Of a stretch of DNA of 64,000 bases, positions 37,164 to 44,350 are shown piece after piece. The position numbers and the translations under genes are program-made. The stretch covers positions 1 to 64,000 of the forward strand of contig JBFWLW010000005.1 of NCBI GenBank assembly GCA_050251945.1, read 5' to 3'. Positions within the stretch are counted from its first letter, which is position 1. The number at the start of each line of letters is the position of its first letter. This stretch comes from Deferribacterales bacterium. Its GTDB lineage: Bacteria > Chrysiogenota > Deferribacteres > Deferribacterales > Geovibrionaceae. The notes below the pieces were generated by a model, which worked only from the letters and a program-made list of their open reading frames with translations, was not told where the DNA came from and searched no databases.

Positions 37164-39569
37164 TTACTTAAATACTATTTCAGCCTCTGAAAGTTTTGCT
37201 TTCAGGTTTTTCCGTCTGCCGAATTTGCTGTTGAGCAGAAGCTCGCTCAGCGGGTCTTCTATGAGCGACTGGAGCATCCTTCTTATGGGTCGTGCGCCGT
37301 ATGTGAAGTCATAGTCAGAGTTTAAGATATGCTCTTTAACTTCGTCGTCTATCTCGATGGACTTGCCGATGTCTGCGAGACGTCTGTTAAGTTCGTTCAC
37401 CTGAAGGTCGATGATCTTGAACAGCTCCTGTTTGCCCAGCGGTTTGAACACGATGACGTTGTCCACCCTGTTGATGAATTCGGGCGGGAACTGGTCTTTC
37501 AGTTCGCGGTTTGCGTTTGAGCTGAAAGCGCCGTAGTCTATGGTGTTCAGTTTTCCGGCAGTTTCAAAGCCCATGGATTTCTTGTTAAGGCTGAGTTTCG
37601 TGCCGAGGTTGGACGTCATTATCACTATAGTGTTCTTGAAGTTGACCTTATGTCCGAGACTGTCGGATATGTGTCCGTCGTCAAGTATTTGCAGAAGCAC
37701 GTTGAGAACTTCAGGGTGCGCCTTCTCTATCTCGTCGAAAAGTACGACGCTGTAAGGTTTTCTGCGCACAAGCTCCGTAAGTTTTCCGCCCTCTTCATAT
37801 CCGACGTACCCGGGGGGGGCGCCGATAAGTTTGGAGGCGTTGAACCTCTCCATATATTCACTCATGTCGATGCGGACAAGGGCTGATTCGGAACCGAATA
37901 CTATTTCCGCGAGTTTTTTCGCGACTTCGGTTTTCCCGACCCCTGTGGGTCCCATAAATATGAATGAGCCAAGCGGTCTGTTTGGGTTTGACAGCCCTGC
38001 GAAGCTTCGTTTCACGGCTTTTGCCAGCGCGTTCACCGCCTCGTCCTGTCCTATGACGTGTTTCTTTATCTCTGTGTCAATTTTGGATATCCGCGTCAGA
38101 TCGTCCTGCTGGAGTTTCTGTACGGGGATTCCGGTCATATGAGCAACAACCTCGCTGACATTCTCCACATGAAGCGTCGGCCAGTTGTCGTCAAGTTCTT
38201 TTACCCAGCTTTTTTCCATTTCAGCGGCTTTTTTGGAGAAACGCTCAACATCCTTTGAAAATCTCTGGATATCGTCGTAATCCGAAGCCTTGAGCTTCTC
38301 GTCGCGTGTGGTTCTCGCCTCGTTCAGCTTCGCCTTGAGTTTAAGCAGAGCTTCCGGCACCTGACGCACAGCGAGTTTCAGTCTTGAGCAGGCTTCATCC
38401 AGAACGTCGATGCTCTTGTCGGGCTGGAACTTGTCGGTGATGTACCTGTCCGTGAGCCTTGCTATCTCTTCCAGAACCTCGTGGCTGATGAGAACCTTGT
38501 GGAAGTCCTCGTAATATCGCTTGATGCCCGCGAGTATCTCGACCGTAGCTATAACGGAGGGCTGTTCCACGGGGATGGTCTGGAATCTTCTGTTGAGCGC
38601 GCCGTCCTTTTCAAAGTTCTTGCGGAACTCGCTGAGGGTGGTTGCGCCTATACACTGGAAAACACCCCTTGCAAGGGCAGGTTTCAGCATGTTCGACGCG
38701 TCGATGGAACCTTCCGCGGCTCCCGCGCCGACCATGGTGTGTATCTCGTCGATGAAGATTATGATATTGCCGTCCGTCTCTATCTCTTTGATGAGGTTCT
38801 TCATCCGCTCTTCAAACTGACCGCGGTACTTCGTACCGGCGACCACGTTGCCAAGCTCAAGAGATATCAGTCTCTTATTGCGCAAAAAGTCCGGTATGTC
38901 GTCGGAGATCATGCGCAGTGCAAGCCCCTCGACTATTGCTGTTTTGCCGACCCCGGGTTCGCCGATGATAACGGCGTTGTTCTTGATGCGTCTTCCGAGT
39001 ATCTGGATAAGTCTTTCTATCTCTTTTCCGCGCCCGATAACAGGGTCAAGTTTGCCCTCTCTCGCCTGCGCGGTCATGTCTCTGCCGAACTCGTCTATGG
39101 TGGGAGTCGCCGCCTGTCCCTGCTTTTTGCTGTAGGTGCGGATAAGTCCCGCTATCTCGTCGCGCAGGGGGAGCAGTTCAAAGCCCAGCTTTGAAAGGAG
39201 CATGGATGCCTTTCCCTTCTTCTCTTTCAGAAGACCGAGAAGGATATGCTCGGTGTTGACATATTTTGTGTTAAGAATCTTCGCCTCGTCCACTGCATAG
39301 TCCAGAACATTCTTGCCGGCGGGGCTGAACGGGAGACTCCCTTTTATCATAAGGTTGTGTCCCTTTTCGCTGACGCTTTTAACATCGTTCATCAGCATTG
39401 TGACGTCTATGCCCCGTTTGGTGAATATTTCGGCTGCTATGCCGGAACGTTCGCGCAGAAGTCCCATAAGGATATGCTCTGTGTCGATGGACGACTGCAT
39501 AAGCCTTTCGGAAGCTTCTCTTGCAAACAGGATCACGCGTCTGGCTCTGTCGGTAAATAATTCAAACAT
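37164..39569 (-). CDS. clpC: ATP-dependent Clp protease ATP-binding subunit, ClpC-type
   Basis: Clp-N repeats, two AAA modules ([16 protein letters not shown]), MGF ClpP-docking loop. Confidence 0.88.
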
Positions 39570-39745
39570 ATAAGTATCCCTTAATAAGATAAATCTATTA
39601 TATTGCCTGCGGGTATGGTTTATCAAGGACAATCTCAATAATCATGAATATATAACCCGACAGAAATACTCGCAATAAGAATTGAGTTGACACAAGTGTG
39701 CGTAATCATAATAATATTTTAAGTAGCTCATATAAGGAGTGTTTT

Positions 39746-40285
39746 ATGAATCAAAAAAACCTTTTCGCAGTTACGCTTATCGCGGCGGACAGACCCGGGA
39801 TAGTCGCGGCGGTGTCTAAAATATTCTACGAAAACAGCTTTAACATAGAGGATTCCAGCTCTACTCTTTTGCAGGGTTTTTTCTCCGCAATATTTATCGT
39901 CAGCAAAGACGGAGTTGATGCGGACGGCGTAAAAAAAATGTTCGCTTCACTTGAAAAGACCATGAATATAGACTTTCATGTGCAGGCTATGAGCGAAGCA
40001 GGGGTCAAACCCATCGGCGAACATTTCATAATCTCCGTTTACGGTTCCGACAAACCCGGCATCGTGAACAAAGTTGCCGAATACCTCGCAAACAGAGAGA
40101 TAAACATCCTCGACCTGCAGACAAAGGTCGCAGGTTCGGAAAAAAGCCCCATATACCTTATGGTGCTTGAGGTTATCATCGATCCCAAAATGATGGGTAC
40201 AGGCTGGGAAGACGACCTGAAAAAAATATCCAGAGATATGGGTACCGACGTAAACATCAGACAGATAGAAACATACGAGTTTTAA
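39746..40285 (+). CDS. Double ACT-domain protein (GcvR-like)
   Basis: ADRPGIVA and SDKPGIV. Confidence 0.82.
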   Translation: MNQKNLFAVTLIAADRPGIVAAVSKIFYENSFNIEDSSSTLLQGFFSAIFIVSKDGVDADGVKKMFASLEKTMNIDFHVQAMSEAGVKPIGEHFIISVYGSDKPGIVNKVAEYLANREINILDLQTKVAGSEKSPIYLMVLEVIIDPKMMGTGWEDDLKKISRDMGTDVNIRQIETYEF

Positions 40286-40288
40286 CAT

Positions 40289-40792
40289 ATGGCAGTCAGA
40301 GAAGTATTGAAATATCCGGATCCCCGTCTGAAGGAGATCGCAGACGACGTCGTTGAGATAAACGATTATATAAAGCAGGTCATCACAGACCTTTCAGACA
40401 CAATGGAAGCCGCAGGACACTCCACAGGCATAGCCGCAACGCAGATAGGCGAGAACGTGCGCATAGTTGTTGCGGATGCTTCAAAGAATGCAAAGTGCGA
40501 GGTTAACCACGGCAGACTTGTTCTGATCAATCCGGAGGTTATCCAGTGGGAGGGCATGATACAGTTCCGCGAGGGCTGTATGAGCGTGCCGGACTACACT
40601 GGAAACGTTAACCGCGCCAAGAAGATACTTCTGCGGTATCAGGATGAGAATCTTGAGCAGAAGGTCATTGAGGCGGAGGATTTCGAGGCGGTGCTTTTAC
40701 AGCATGAGACAGACCACCTCGACGGTACGCTGTTCCTCGACAGGGTCATATCCAAACGTACCGACCTGTTCCGCAGAAAGAAATTCAAATAG
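40289..40792 (+). CDS. def: Peptide deformylase
   Basis: GIAATQIG, EGCMS, QHETDHLDG. Confidence 0.95.
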   Translation: MAVREVLKYPDPRLKEIADDVVEINDYIKQVITDLSDTMEAAGHSTGIAATQIGENVRIVVADASKNAKCEVNHGRLVLINPEVIQWEGMIQFREGCMSVPDYTGNVNRAKKILLRYQDENLEQKVIEAEDFEAVLLQHETDHLDGTLFLDRVISKRTDLFRRKKFK

Positions 40793-40793
40793 G

Positions 40794-40928
40794 TTATTCA
40801 GCGCTCAGCTCATAAGCGACCTGTTCCTTTGCCTGCGGCTGAACGTTTTTCTGTCCGCCGTTAACAGCGAACAGTATAAGAAATCCGAAGAATATCACAG
40901 CGGTTATGTGTATTGCATATCTGTCCAT
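40794..40928 (-). CDS. 44-aa single-TM small protein (below ORF-track cutoff)
   Basis: Manual translation MDRYAIHITAVIFFGFLILFAVNGGQKNVQPQAKEQVAYELSAE*; AGGAGG RBS 5 nt before ATG. Confidence 0.7.
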   Translation of the reverse strand: MDRYAIHITAVIFFGFLILFAVNGGQKNVQPQAKEQVAYELSAE

Positions 40929-40947
40929 ATTTTCCTCCTACAGGTCT

Positions 40948-40984
40948 AATATAAAACAGGCAAGCGACAACTGCTGTCGTTTGC
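40948..40984 (-). promoter_or_regulatory. Candidate WYL operator and -10 box for the 44-aa gene
   Basis: Palindrome gcaagCGAC-aactgct-GTCGtttgc; minus strand TGTCGC-N10-TATATT. Confidence 0.7.
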
Positions 40985-41000
40985 ATGCGAAAAATTATAC

Positions 41001-41701
41001 GTCTCTGCAAGGAATGAAATGACGAAGCAGTCTTAACGGTTCAGATCGCTTTGGGCTGAGCCTCGCGAAGACAAAAAGAGAGTGTCTCTGCGAGGAATGA
41101 AATGGCGGAGCAGTCTTAACGGTTTAGATCGCTTCAGGTTAAGCCCTCGCGAAGACAAAAAGAGAACGTCTCTGCGGGGAATGAAATGGCGAAGCAGTCT
41201 TAACGGTTCAGATCGCTTCGGGCAAAGCCTCGCGAAGACAAAAAGAGAACGTCTCTGCGGGGAATAAAATGACGAAGCAGTCTTAACGGTTCAGATCGCT
41301 TCGGGCTGAGCCTCGCGAAGACAAAATGAGAATGTCTCTGCGGGGAATGAAATGACGAAGCAGTCTTAACAGTTTAGATCGCTTCGGGCTGAGCCCTCGC
41401 GAAGACAAAAAGAGAGTGTCTCTGCGAGGAATGAAATGACGAAGCAGTCTTAACAGTTTAGATCGCTTCGGGCTGAGCCTCGCGAAGACAAAAAGAGAGT
41501 GTCTCTGCGGGGAATGAAATGGCGAAACAGTCTTAACGGTTCAGATCGCTTCGGGCTGAGCCCTCGCGAAGACAAAAAGAGAGTGTCTCTGCGAGGAATG
41601 AAATGACGAAGCAGTCTTAACATTTTAGATCGCTTCGGGCTGAGCCCTCGCGAAGACAAAAAGAGAACGTCTCTGCGAGGAATGAAATGACGAAGCAGTC
41701 T
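41001..41701. repeat. BIME-like tandem array of REP doublets: 8 units of 83-84 bp plus a final half unit
   Basis: Units start at 41001, 41084, 41168, 41251, 41334, 41418, 41501, 41585, 41669; linkers are near-constant. Confidence 0.95.
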
Positions 41702-41710
41702 CAATTCAAT

Positions 41711-41739
41711 GGCGACAATATGTGTCGCCGTGGTATACT
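41711..41739 (+). promoter_or_regulatory. Candidate WYL auto-operator plus extended -10
   Basis: ggCGAC-aatatgt-GTCGcc then TGgTATACT, 5 nt before the ATG at 41745. Confidence 0.7.
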
Positions 41740-41744
41740 TTCCC

Positions 41745-42662
41745 ATGAATAAACTTTATGTAGCTCTGAATCTGATAAGACTTCTCAACGAGAACAGAAC
41801 TGTGACATCCGTTCTGGTGGCGGAGGATATGGGTATCAGCCTGCGCACGGCACAGCGGTACCTGTTGGAAATGAGCCACCTGCCGGGGGTCTGCTATGAC
41901 GATTCCCGCCACTGCTGGTATATGACGGAGAAATACGGACTTTCCGAAAGCTATCTGAAACAGGATGAACTTGCCGTTCTGTCGGGGCTTTTCGATTATG
42001 CCGAGAACATTCTGAACAACGATTTTTCGCCGGTTCTGCGGAAGATAAAAAAGAAAGTAATCTCCGCATCAAACAGGGAGAGGGTCGTTCGTTTTCTGAA
42101 ACAGGATTCAATAGAATTCGAGAAGATAGCCGATATTTTCGCTGAAATTGAAGTTTTTATCATGAACCGTCAGGAGATATCTTTTCTGTACAGCAAAAAC
42201 GGCAAAAGCTACACGATACAGCCCTACAGGATAATTTACGGCGACGGGTTCTGGTATCTGGCGGGTGGAAAGGGCGGCGAACTGCGCAAATTCAGCCTCG
42301 ACCTGATAACTGAAATCAAACCAACCGGAAAACTTTACGACAAGGTGCCGGAAGGACTGGACACCGCCATTGACGAGGCTAAGAGCATCTTTTTCGATTC
42401 GGGTCAGAAAGTTACCGTTGAGTGCGTGATGAACCATCCTATGTCCGATTACCTGCGGCGTAAGCGTTTCTTCCCTCATCAGCAGATACTGGAGGAGAAT
42501 GACGATATGAGTTTGCGTTTCAGTTTTAAGGTTGCCTCTCCGCTGGAATGTACAAAACTGTGCCTCGACTGGCTCCCGCACATCAAGGTATTATCACCGG
42601 ATTCAATGCGCGATTATCTGATCGGAGTTTTGAAAGATTCTCTTGATTCTTATCATCTCTGA
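41745..42662 (+). CDS. HTH-WYL-WCX transcriptional regulator
   Basis: wHTH AEDMGISLRTAQRYL; QPYRIIYGDGFWYLAG...RKFSLDLI; WCX-like IKVLSPDSMR. Confidence 0.9.
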   Translation: MNKLYVALNLIRLLNENRTVTSVLVAEDMGISLRTAQRYLLEMSHLPGVCYDDSRHCWYMTEKYGLSESYLKQDELAVLSGLFDYAENILNNDFSPVLRKIKKKVISASNRERVVRFLKQDSIEFEKIADIFAEIEVFIMNRQEISFLYSKNGKSYTIQPYRIIYGDGFWYLAGGKGGELRKFSLDLITEIKPTGKLYDKVPEGLDTAIDEAKSIFFDSGQKVTVECVMNHPMSDYLRRKRFFPHQQILEENDDMSLRFSFKVASPLECTKLCLDWLPHIKVLSPDSMRDYLIGVLKDSLDSYHL

Positions 42663-43036
42663 CAGCGCAAAATTTTATATTTGATTTTTGTCTGTGTAGC
42701 CGAAACCCTCTCCCAGTCAGTAAAGTTTATCTTAAGCACTGTAATTTCTCAAGACAATCATAATAATAAATAAAAAAAATTAAGATTTTTTCTCTGTTTA
42801 TTCAGTAAGCCATTGTTCAATATTAAACTGTGGTTTTATACGATAAAATTTACCTTATTATCAGTTTATTAGTTTAACAATAAATTCAAAAACAATCGGT
42901 TCTCTCATTGTTAAAAAGCGTTATTATCAAACAGTAGTTATAGGATTTAAAGAGTCTTTTAATCTTGACGCGTGTATTTTGAGTGGTACTCTTGGGGCAT
43001 GTATTTCATGTTAATTTTGTTAACGGAGGTTTTTTA

Positions 43037-44350
43037 ATGGATGCAATAGCTCTGTCAAGACTTCAGTTTGCACTTACGGCAGGTTTCCACTGGATTTTCG
43101 TCCCTCTTACTCTGGGACTGATAATTCTTACTGCCTTTATGGAAACAATGTATGTGCGGACCGGAAACACACTTTATCTCAGAATGACTAAATTCTGGGG
43201 AAAATTGTTTCTCATCAACTTCGCAATAGGAGTTGTGACCGGTATAACCATGGAATTCCAGTTCGGAATGAACTGGGCGGAATACTCGAAATATGTGGGC
43301 GACATATTCGGGGCGCCACTGGCAATTGAGGCGACTGTGGCATTTTTTCTTGAGTCCACTTTTCTTGGAATCTGGATTTTCGGGTGGAAAAAGATAAGCA
43401 AAAAAGCTCACCTTTTTGCAGTCTGGATGGTGGCTCTCGGTTCAAACCTTTCTGCGCTGTGGATTCTCATAGCGAATGCATGGATGCAGCATCCTGTGGG
43501 GTATGTTCTTAATAACGGCAGGGCGGAGATGGTTGATTTCGGGGCGCTCATCTTCTCATCATCAGCGTGGGTGAAATTCTTCCATTCAATCTCTTCCGGC
43601 TGGGTTGTGGCGGCATTTTTCGTTATGGGAGTGTCCGCGTATCATATACTTAGAAAGAACGAAGTCGAATTCTTTAAAAAGAGTCTTAAATTCGGAGCTG
43701 TATTCGGGCTTGCGGCAACAATTTTCCTTGCTGTGCTGGGCGACAGTAGCGGTATCGACGTTGCGAAACACCAGCCTTCAAAATTTGCCGCAATGGAATC
43801 ACTCTGGGAAACACAGAACGGTGCACCCTCGTATCTGTTTGCTGTTCCGGACAGCGCAAACGAGAGAAACTCAGTGGAGTTCATCCCTGTTCCGAAAATG
43901 GCAAGCTTTCTTGCGTTTCATGATGTTAACGCAGAGGTTAAAGGTCTGAAAGAGTATTCTTCCGATCTCAGACCGCCGGTTGGGCTGACATTCTTCAGTT
44001 TCCGTTTTATGATCTATCTTGGCGTAATTTTCATAGTTTTGTCCTGCATGGCTCTTTACTACTCGAAAAAGGACACTATTGAGAACAAAACACTGCTTTT
44101 GAAAATACTGCTTTATTCCATTCCGCTGCCGTATATTGCCGGACAGCTTGGCTGGATTGTTGCAGAGGTCGGCAGGCAGCCATGGATAGTATACGGGCTT
44201 ATGAAAACGTCTGACGCGGTGTCCGTAAACCTTACACCCGCTCACGTTATCCTTTCCCTTGTGGGATTCGTTGGTTTTTACACACTGCTTGGCATAATAG
44301 ATATTTTCCTGCTGGTGAAATATTCTAAAAAAGGACCCGAAAGGGCATAG
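43037..44350 (+). CDS. cydA: Cytochrome bd oxidase subunit I
   Basis: RLQFA...FHWIF, EFQFG, KFAAME, GRQPW. Confidence 0.96.
   Translation: MDAIALSRLQFALTAGFHWIFVPLTLGLIILTAFMETMYVRTGNTLYLRMTKFWGKLFLINFAIGVVTGITMEFQFGMNWAEYSKYVGDIFGAPLAIEATVAFFLESTFLGIWIFGWKKISKKAHLFAVWMVALGSNLSALWILIANAWMQHPVGYVLNNGRAEMVDFGALIFSSSAWVKFFHSISSGWVVAAFFVMGVSAYHILRKNEVEFFKKSLKFGAVFGLAATIFLAVLGDSSGIDVAKHQPSKFAAMESLWETQNGAPSYLFAVPDSANERNSVEFIPVPKMASFLAFHDVNAEVKGLKEYSSDLRPPVGLTFFSFRFMIYLGVIFIVLSCMALYYSKKDTIENKTLLLKILLYSIPLPYIAGQLGWIVAEVGRQPWIVYGLMKTSDAVSVNLTPAHVILSLVGFVGFYTLLGIIDIFLLVKYSKKGPERA

What the first reader, a model, noticed from the sequence alone, without database searches (positions are those of the whole stretch)
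40794..42662. WYL regulator with twin CGAC-N7-GTCG operators facing an unlisted 44-aa membrane peptide: candidate DriD/DidA-like damage-response module
Seen: a 44-aa single-TM ORF (40928-40794, strong AGGAGG) missed by the ORF track is divergent from an HTH-WYL gene. The same palindrome core CGAC-N7-GTCG lies upstream of both (40965-40979 and 41713-41727). For the peptide the layout is TGTCGC-N10-TATATT; for the WYL gene the half-site is only 5 nt from the -10. Known: Caulobacter DriD binds ATACGAC-N7-GTCGTAT upon sensing ssDNA and activates didA, a small membrane division inhibitor; mycobacterial PafBC activates TGTCGG-N10-TA-N3-T promoters. Inference: this WYL protein activates the peptide in response to nucleic-acid ligands and represses itself, and the peptide may be a new growth or division effector.
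Basis: partly seen in the sequence, partly recalled or inferred. Interest (0 to 1): 0.85.

Follow-up and report, generated by a model that had tools for sequence, protein, structure and literature searches.

The report
DNA-damage activator with new membrane peptide
A regulator of a known DNA-damage-sensing type very probably switches on a neighbouring, uncharacterised 44-residue membrane protein and, in one branch of this bacterial genus, the repair gene recA; whether the small protein halts cell division is untested.

Summary
Both palindromes are there; they are really CGACA-N5-TGTCG, the published DdaA box (CGWCA-N5-TGWCG), a tighter form of the DriD box. The 44-aa single-helix peptide is a real gene: it faces the WYL gene in 7 of 7 genus genomes, shows purifying selection, and is already in NCBI as 'hypothetical'. 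Its -10 lies 11 nt from the box, the DriD/PafBC activation spacing. New here: the same box lies 99 nt before recA in 5 of 7 genus genomes, which form one clade; LexA has a different box and none exact at recA there. A 181-aa membrane protein is a further target. The WYL keeps the DNA-reading arginines and both ssDNA-sensing tyrosines but lacks one ssDNA arginine. Autorepression is plausible, not shown. Nothing ties the peptide to division except analogy with DidA and AciT; in the sister genus other genes sit in its place. The scan noted this box type before in SAR86. Verdict: new member of a known kind, with a new small-protein family and a recent capture of recA.

The parts
40794..40928 (-). 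44-aa single-helix membrane peptide of no known family; predicted activated target
   Evidence: (pN/pS 0.08-0.29 over codons 1-25, hydropathy 2.3-2.5)
40934..40939 (-). Shine-Dalgarno AGGAGG of the peptide
40948..40953 (-). -10 hexamer TATATT, 11 nt from box 1 (DriD/PafBC activation spacing)
   Evidence: TATATT in 5 of 5 two-box genomes, TATGGT/TATTCT in G003/G001
40965..40979 (.). Box 1, CGACA-N5-TGTCG, over the -35 position of the peptide promoter
41001..41701 (.). 8.4 tandem copies of an 83-bp REP-like palindromic unit, expanded in this genome only; a passenger between the boxes
41713..41727 (.). Box 2, CGACA-N5-TGTCG, over the -35 and spacer of the WYL promoter; candidate autoregulatory site
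   Evidence: identical 15-mer is the DdaA site of A. baylyi PaciT (PMC13010146)
41731..41739 (+). Extended -10 (TG-N-TATACT) of the WYL gene, 5 nt before the ATG, no SD: probably leaderless mRNA
41745..42662 (+). wHTH-WYL-WCX (class A) regulator, 305 aa, DdaA/DriD-like

Best explanation
The 305-aa WYL protein is a homodimeric DdaA/DriD-type activator. It reads CGWCA-N5-TGWCG with R34/R38 (inferred; p about 0.9). On binding single-stranded nucleic acid from DNA damage or incoming DNA (inferred from Y149/Y171; p about 0.7) it sits over the -35 position, 11 nt from a -10, and recruits RNA polymerase. Its regulon in this genome is small: the divergent peptide (p about 0.85), recA through an added upstream promoter on top of a basal one (regulated p about 0.75; activation more likely than repression), a 181-aa membrane-anchored protein, and perhaps a T5orf172 gene on a tRNA island. 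Box 2 covers the -35/spacer of its own leaderless promoter and most likely damps its own synthesis (p about 0.55). LexA acts separately through CGAAC-N4-GTTCG on lexA-dinB. The peptide probably works inside the membrane by binding a membrane protein, since only its helix and the N-x-G after it are conserved; a division checkpoint like DidA or AciT is my single best guess (p about 0.3). Shown: sequences, spacings, conservation. Inferred: binding, ligand, sign of regulation, peptide function.
For: Box beside the WYL start in 10 of 10 orthologues examined of genus g1 and g4. Of 33 exact boxes in 11 genomes, not selected on downstream sequence, 18 of 22 in AT-rich context have TA exactly 11 nt away (background 0.18; 9 distinct target groups) against 1 of 11 elsewhere. 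recA box at -99 with variable spacer in 5 of 23 recA copies from 22 genomes; these five are one clade (98/97); the neighbour upstream differs in G004/G005, so the box goes with recA. A matrix trained on 29 boxes of relatives ranks recA, peptide, two new sites and the WYL box as the top five in the genome; one new site is kept with CATAAT at 11 nt in 4 of 4 orthologues. Motif equals the DdaA consensus (PMC12392091); box 2 is letter for letter a site shifted by DdaA (PMC13010146). Best solved relatives are DriD entries (E 1e-7 single, 1e-11 profile). R34, R38, Y149, Y171 invariant in 24 of 24 aligned orthologues. DriD and DdaA both activate recA and a small membrane division inhibitor. No SulA match in the genome.
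Against: No binding, expression or phenotype data. The recA hexamer at 11 nt is TATYAA, without the last T; a TATGTT at 6 nt (4 of 5) fits the own-promoter geometry, so repression of that promoter is possible. recA has no box in G001, G003 or 16 other copies, although several of those genomes hold the WYL. No other repair gene scores in this genome. The arginine matching DriD R207, whose loss impairs DriD, is Ser, and the following DR is DL. DriD does not regulate itself. The peptide is confined to the genus among 41 genomes and other boxed targets are lipoproteins, defence genes and unknowns. Genomes are kin and the AT cut-off (0.58) was chosen after seeing the data.
Confidence: 0.7

Rival explanations
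1. The WYL is a local activator of envelope and anti-phage cargo that responds to foreign nucleic acid; the peptide alters the cell surface or entry of DNA or phage, not division, and recA is a late add-on.
For: Boxed targets in relatives include lipoproteins with Ig folds, type I HsdM (2), an SspB/DUF4007 gene, a DUF4011 helicase, an ADP-ribosylglycohydrolase and unknown membrane proteins; the divergent partner changes between genera; DdaA also drives defence genes.
Against: In the genus the WYL-peptide pair is single-copy and stable in 7 of 7 genomes, not on an island; no relative was found in viral contigs. It shares the regulator with the best explanation and differs only in output.
Confidence: 0.25
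2. The WYL is a CapW/BrxR-like repressor: the boxes block the promoters of the peptide, recA and itself and are released by ssDNA.
For: Box 2 overlaps a sigma70-like promoter (GCGACA-16-TATACT); TAnnnT at 5-6 nt recurs, also at recA in 4 of 5.
Against: The dominant spacing is 11 nt with no -35, as in PafBC tGTCgg(N10)tA(N3)T and DriD; PDB searches return DriD and, weakly, PafBC, not CapW or BrxR; the motif is DdaA's, an activator.
Confidence: 0.1
3. The boxes are read by another protein (LexA or the second, YafY-like WYL on contig C16), or are chance.
For: Two hits per window are within chance; the genome has a second WYL and a LexA.
Against: lexA has CGAAC-N4-GTTCG in 7 of 7 genus genomes and no WYL box; the C16 WYL has no such box upstream and a different recognition helix; the box follows this WYL family into different contexts, including a 37%-identical paralogue.
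Confidence: 0.05

Closest known systems
DdaA of Acinetobacter/Moraxellaceae (PMC12392091; PMC13010146)
   Same: wHTH-WYL-WCX; box CGWCA-N5-TGWCG (box 2 identical to the PaciT site); two helix arginines and two sensing tyrosines; loss of the first beta4/beta5 arginine; recA, ssb, RM and defence genes as targets; basal lineages self-regulated with LexA present; a small membrane-anchored target (AciT).
   Different: Different phylum; regulon of at most five sites here against up to 20; DdaA boxes reported about 50 bp before the start site, here mostly over the -35; second loop arginine also lost; membership of the DdaA clade not tested.
DriD-DidA of Caulobacter crescentus (PMC4211646, PMC10853764, PMC13004042)
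   Same: Best solved relative; CGAC-N7-GTCG core; box over the -35 at a fixed distance from the -10; regulator divergent from an activated unknown gene (CCNA_03891); recA target; LexA present.
   Different: Similarity is distant (E 1e-7, WYL-WCX only); R207 equivalent is Ser; DriD does not regulate itself; DidA is 71 aa and not adjacent to driD, and no likeness of the peptide to DidA was shown.
PafBC of mycobacteria (PMC8635444, PMC6789036)
   Same: tGTCgg(N10)tA(N3)T gives the same half-site to -10 spacing; recA target.
   Different: Heterodimer on a non-palindromic site using sigma adaptation; here one gene and a full palindrome; weak sequence match (E 0.006).
SiwR of Mycobacterium smegmatis (PMC10693628)
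   Same: Homodimeric WYL activator of adjacent genes through a palindrome at the -26 region.
   Different: Targets are DinB/YfiT-like genes; both ssDNA arginines present and required.
CGTC-type REP repeats (PMC3733652), for the 83-bp array
   Same: Dispersed palindromic units, some starting CGTC, reiterated in tandem between genes.
   Different: No Deferribacterales named in that paper's main text; no Y1_Tnp/RAYT match in this genome; family assignment not tested.

Membership tests
Class A WYL regulators | wHTH + WYL + WCX | tested here: met
   WYL E 2e-10 and WCX E 6e-7 above cut-off; HTH models below cut-off at residues 8-42
DdaA family | Binding motif CGWCA-N5-TGWCG | tested here: met
   (presence and conservation of the motif; binding itself not tested)
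DdaA family | Two arginines of the recognition helix (R47/R51) | tested here: met
   R34 and R38 invariant in 24 of 24; equivalence by spacing and position, no DdaA sequence aligned
DdaA family | ssDNA-sensing tyrosines (DdaA Y173/Y200 = DriD Y168/Y192) | tested here: met
   Y149 and Y171, counted on the DriD alignment, invariant
DdaA family | First beta4/beta5 arginine replaced by alanine | tested here: inconclusive
   Arg is lost but replaced by Ser (Gly, Ala, Thr, Val, Leu in orthologues); the paper's figure could not be seen, so the position is my reading
DdaA family | Placement in the DdaA clade of the WYL tree | not tested
   No DdaA sequence was obtained; the 3 genomes of the phylum outside the class had no match at 1e-20
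DriD orthologues | ssDNA pocket Y168, S172, R178, R189, Y192, R204, R207, Y240 | tested here: not met
   Y, S, Y, R204 kept and Y240 is Phe; R178, R189, R207 not kept
DriD orthologues | Box over the -35 at a fixed distance from the -10 of targets | tested here: met
   TA at 11 nt in 18 of 22 AT-rich boxes; same count on the didA and CCNA_03891 oligos printed in PMC13004042 (counted by hand)
DriD orthologues | ssDNA-dependent activation | not testable with these tools
   needs biochemistry
PafBC | Heterodimer of adjacent pafB and pafC on a non-palindromic site | tested here: not met
   single gene, 2 unlinked WYL genes in the genome; palindromic site
DidA/SidA/AciT-like division inhibitors | Small single-pass membrane protein under a damage regulator | tested here: met
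   regulator link inferred
DidA/SidA/AciT-like division inhibitors | Sequence likeness to a known inhibitor | tested here: inconclusive
DidA/SidA/AciT-like division inhibitors | Binds the divisome and blocks division | not testable with these tools

The most novel reading that the evidence does not exclude
A third, independent assembly of a LexA-independent damage checkpoint: a DdaA/DriD-like WYL activator in Deferribacterales drives an unrelated 44-aa membrane division inhibitor and has captured recA within one branch of a single genus, caught at the step where the shared box was duplicated and a new box appeared above recA's old basal promoter; its arginine-poor pocket may read a ligand other than plain ssDNA.
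Probability: 0.25. Interest if true: 0.68.

Novelty: new member of a known kind. Interest (0 to 1): 0.45.

Why it matters
WYL activators are an established alternative to the SOS response in Caulobacter, Acinetobacter and mycobacteria. This locus extends the same box and promoter geometry to Deferribacterales, gives a short testable target list, and offers a natural before/after pair inside one genus (with and without the recA box) for the proposal that these regulators take over the damage response starting from recA. The peptide is a new small-protein family; if it blocks division it would be a third unrelated membrane inhibitor under the same kind of regulator. If not, it is one more uncharacterised local target.

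Tried and rejected
Expression: no RNA holder listed; three small-share runs from one study laid short pieces on the neighbouring genes and none on the peptide: no evidence either way. Complex prediction of the peptide with FtsW, FtsI and FtsL was not available; a structure prediction of the WYL did not finish, so no fold search was run. Atlas look-alikes of the peptide scored 0.82-0.84 (Blr among them), within chance. Rfam: 0 matches in 39500-44000. The repeat unit folds no better than shuffles (z -0.15 to -1.65) and has no spacers, so not CRISPR. LexA as reader of the box: rejected. Start at 41709: rejected, most orthologues begin at MNKL. Viral contigs: no relative. Metagenome contigs gave 4 distant loci without an exact box or peptide. 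The T5orf172 gene was not found in 5 relatives, so its box could not be footprinted. My first intergenic filter was too strict and hid the 181-aa target. Contexts of the three distant peptide homologues could not be fetched.

Full report
Observation. The window is contig C5 of G000; the closest named proteins are from Seleniivibrio, Deferribacterales. Two CGAC-N7-GTCG matches in 64 kb are not beyond chance by themselves (15 of 100 shuffles reach 2). Both are the longer CGACA-N5-TGTCG, of which the 3.07-Mb genome has 4. Between them lie 8.4 copies of an 83-bp repeat. The regulator has WYL and WCX domains and a weak HTH match and most likely starts at 41745.

The peptide is a real gene. It faces the WYL gene in 7 of 7 genus genomes, in two different neighbourhoods. 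Over codons 1-25 of five of the seven copies pN/pS is 0.08-0.29 and variable columns fall 7/4/17 on codon positions 1/2/3. A profile of the seven finds, besides its own members, only three marginal hits (E 0.05-0.08) in 41 genomes; among 1.84 billion representatives it finds 7 proteins: 3 family members, 3 more distant ones and one 1234-aa protein that I did not examine. Conservation is confined to the hydrophobic helix and the N-x-G after it. No Pfam or NCBIfam family matches. Close forms are in NCBI as hypothetical proteins, in S. woodruffii with the accession next to the WYL's.

The box and its geometry. A box lies beside the WYL start in 10 of 10 orthologues examined from this genus and the sister genus, 5-6 nt from an extended -10; more distant orthologues, and one second copy in G009, mostly lack an exact box there. 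G001, G003 and the sister genus have one shared box; five genomes including G000 have two, and repeats inserted between them. Of all 33 exact boxes in 11 genomes, 18 of the 22 in AT-rich context have TA exactly 11 nt from a half-site, against 1 of the other 11 and a background of 0.18. The 18 fall into 9 target groups; genomes are kin and I set the AT cut-off after seeing the data. This is the PafBC spacing tGTCgg(N10)tA(N3)T (PMC8635444, passages), and counting on the printed didA and CCNA_03891 oligos gives an nAnnnT hexamer at the same distance for DriD (PMC13004042, passages and sections 6 and 13).

The regulon. The third intergenic exact box of the genome lies before recA. In 23 recA copies from 22 of the relatives, 5 carry it, all at -99 with differing spacers; 18 do not. 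The five form one clade in the RecA tree (98/97; 81/97 in the WYL tree) and are the same five with the doubled box. In G004 and G005 the upstream gene differs, so the box belongs to recA; a basal promoter TTTTCW-N17-TAATAT is kept in 7 of 7. The hexamer at 11 nt is TATYAA behind a conserved TG; an overlapping TATGTT at 6 nt in 4 of 5 leaves the sign open, and activation of the basal promoter from upstream is a third possibility. LexA is present in 36 of 41 genomes with its own CGAAC-N4-GTTCG at lexA in 7 of 7 genus genomes; at recA an exact match occurs only in G015. A matrix from 29 boxes of relatives ranks recA, the peptide, a tRNA-island site, a 181-aa membrane protein and the WYL box first (19-27 bits, next 17); orthologues of recA, peptide and WYL boxes were in the training set, the other two were not. 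The 181-aa gene keeps box and CATAAT in 4 of 4 orthologues. No other repair gene appears. In relatives boxes precede ssb, two HsdM, SspB/DUF4007, a DUF4011 helicase, an ADP-ribosylglycohydrolase and lipoproteins.

The regulator. All PDB matches below E 1e-6 are DriD entries (8TPK is named as DriD); PafBC scores 0.006. R34/R38 match the DriD R37/R41 and DdaA R47/R51 pair; Y149/Y171 match the tyrosines that DdaA needs for damage induction (PMC13010146, abstract, passages, section 26). Against this, the DriD R207 position is Ser and R178, R189 and the following Arg are lost (PMC10853764, passages). DdaA also lacks one of these arginines (PMC12392091, passages, Results parts 1-2 of 3, supplement parts 1, 187, 188); its figures could not be seen, so the exact position and the make-up of its tree, which may already include Deferribacterales proteins, are unknown to me.

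How it likely works. A WYL dimer, switched on by single-stranded nucleic acid, binds over the -35 position and recruits polymerase to the peptide, the 181-aa gene and recA. Box 2 has no -10 at 11 nt in the other direction, yet both arms are kept in 5 of 5 two-box genomes, which argues for a role on the WYL promoter itself, probably repression; DriD, however, does not regulate itself. The peptide most likely binds a membrane protein through its helix. Division arrest is the best single guess because DriD drives DidA (71 aa, one helix; PMC4211646, passages) and DdaA drives AciT, and no SulA was found; but the partner gene is interchangeable between genera and nothing here tests it.

Novelty. The box, the geometry, the recA target and the small membrane target are all published for DriD and DdaA, and this scan noted the box type twice in SAR86 (unchecked notes, seen after I had found the DdaA paper). 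Searches for Deferribacter + WYL + DNA damage, Seleniivibrio + recA + regulon, DdaA + WYL, and DriD + homologs + binding motif + phyla (listings only, apart from papers named here) and the DdaA supplement showed no description of this regulon in Deferribacterales; subscription papers are not covered. PMC6789036, PMC10693628 and PMC3733652 were read as passages. The REP reading of the array and the Firmicutes-type label of the LexA box rest partly on recall. Verdict: new member of a known kind; interest 0.45.

Noticed in passing
window 41001-41701: 8.4 tandem copies of an 83-bp REP-like unit; the family hits 36 loci in the genome; relatives have a part of one unit, another insert or nothing here; no Y1_Tnp/RAYT match in the genome.
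   Followed up: partly
L001 6320-6360 (G000:C6:98331): WYL box 99 nt before recA; recA is followed by a PilT-like ATPase and a RecX-like ORF (RecX by eye), which may be co-induced.
   Followed up: yes
L127 4559-5152 (G000:C2:364558-365154): 181-aa membrane-anchored protein of no known family with box and CATAAT at 11 nt in 4 of 4 orthologues; found in 4 of 10 genomes searched.
   Followed up: partly
L128 2345-4540 (G000:C2:303841-306040): Strong box beside tRNA-Met, about 450 nt from a 515-aa T5orf172 + Sel1 gene (PADLOC PDC-S57-like) and near an RHH antitoxin-like gene; looks like a small island.
   Followed up: partly
L130 4330-6403 (G000:C1:288337-290405): LexA box CGAAC-N4-GTTCG before lexA, a 109-aa unknown ORF and a DinB-like polymerase; only 2 exact boxes in the genome, so the LexA regulon looks minimal.
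   Followed up: partly
window 41731-41747: The WYL gene looks leaderless in 7 of 7 genus genomes but has an SD and a 23-24 nt gap in the 3 sister-genus orthologues.
   Followed up: partly
window 40789-40796: The peptide's stop abuts the stop of the convergent peptide deformylase gene with no terminator found, so induction could give antisense read-through.
   Followed up: no
L085 and L111 (G015): G015 has boxes before two type I HsdM genes but no match to this WYL (92% complete), and it alone has an exact LexA box at recA.
   Followed up: no
L129 4408-5340 (G000:C16): Second, YafY-like WYL regulator divergent from a 170-aa gene, with its own imperfect TGACA-type palindrome.
   Followed up: no
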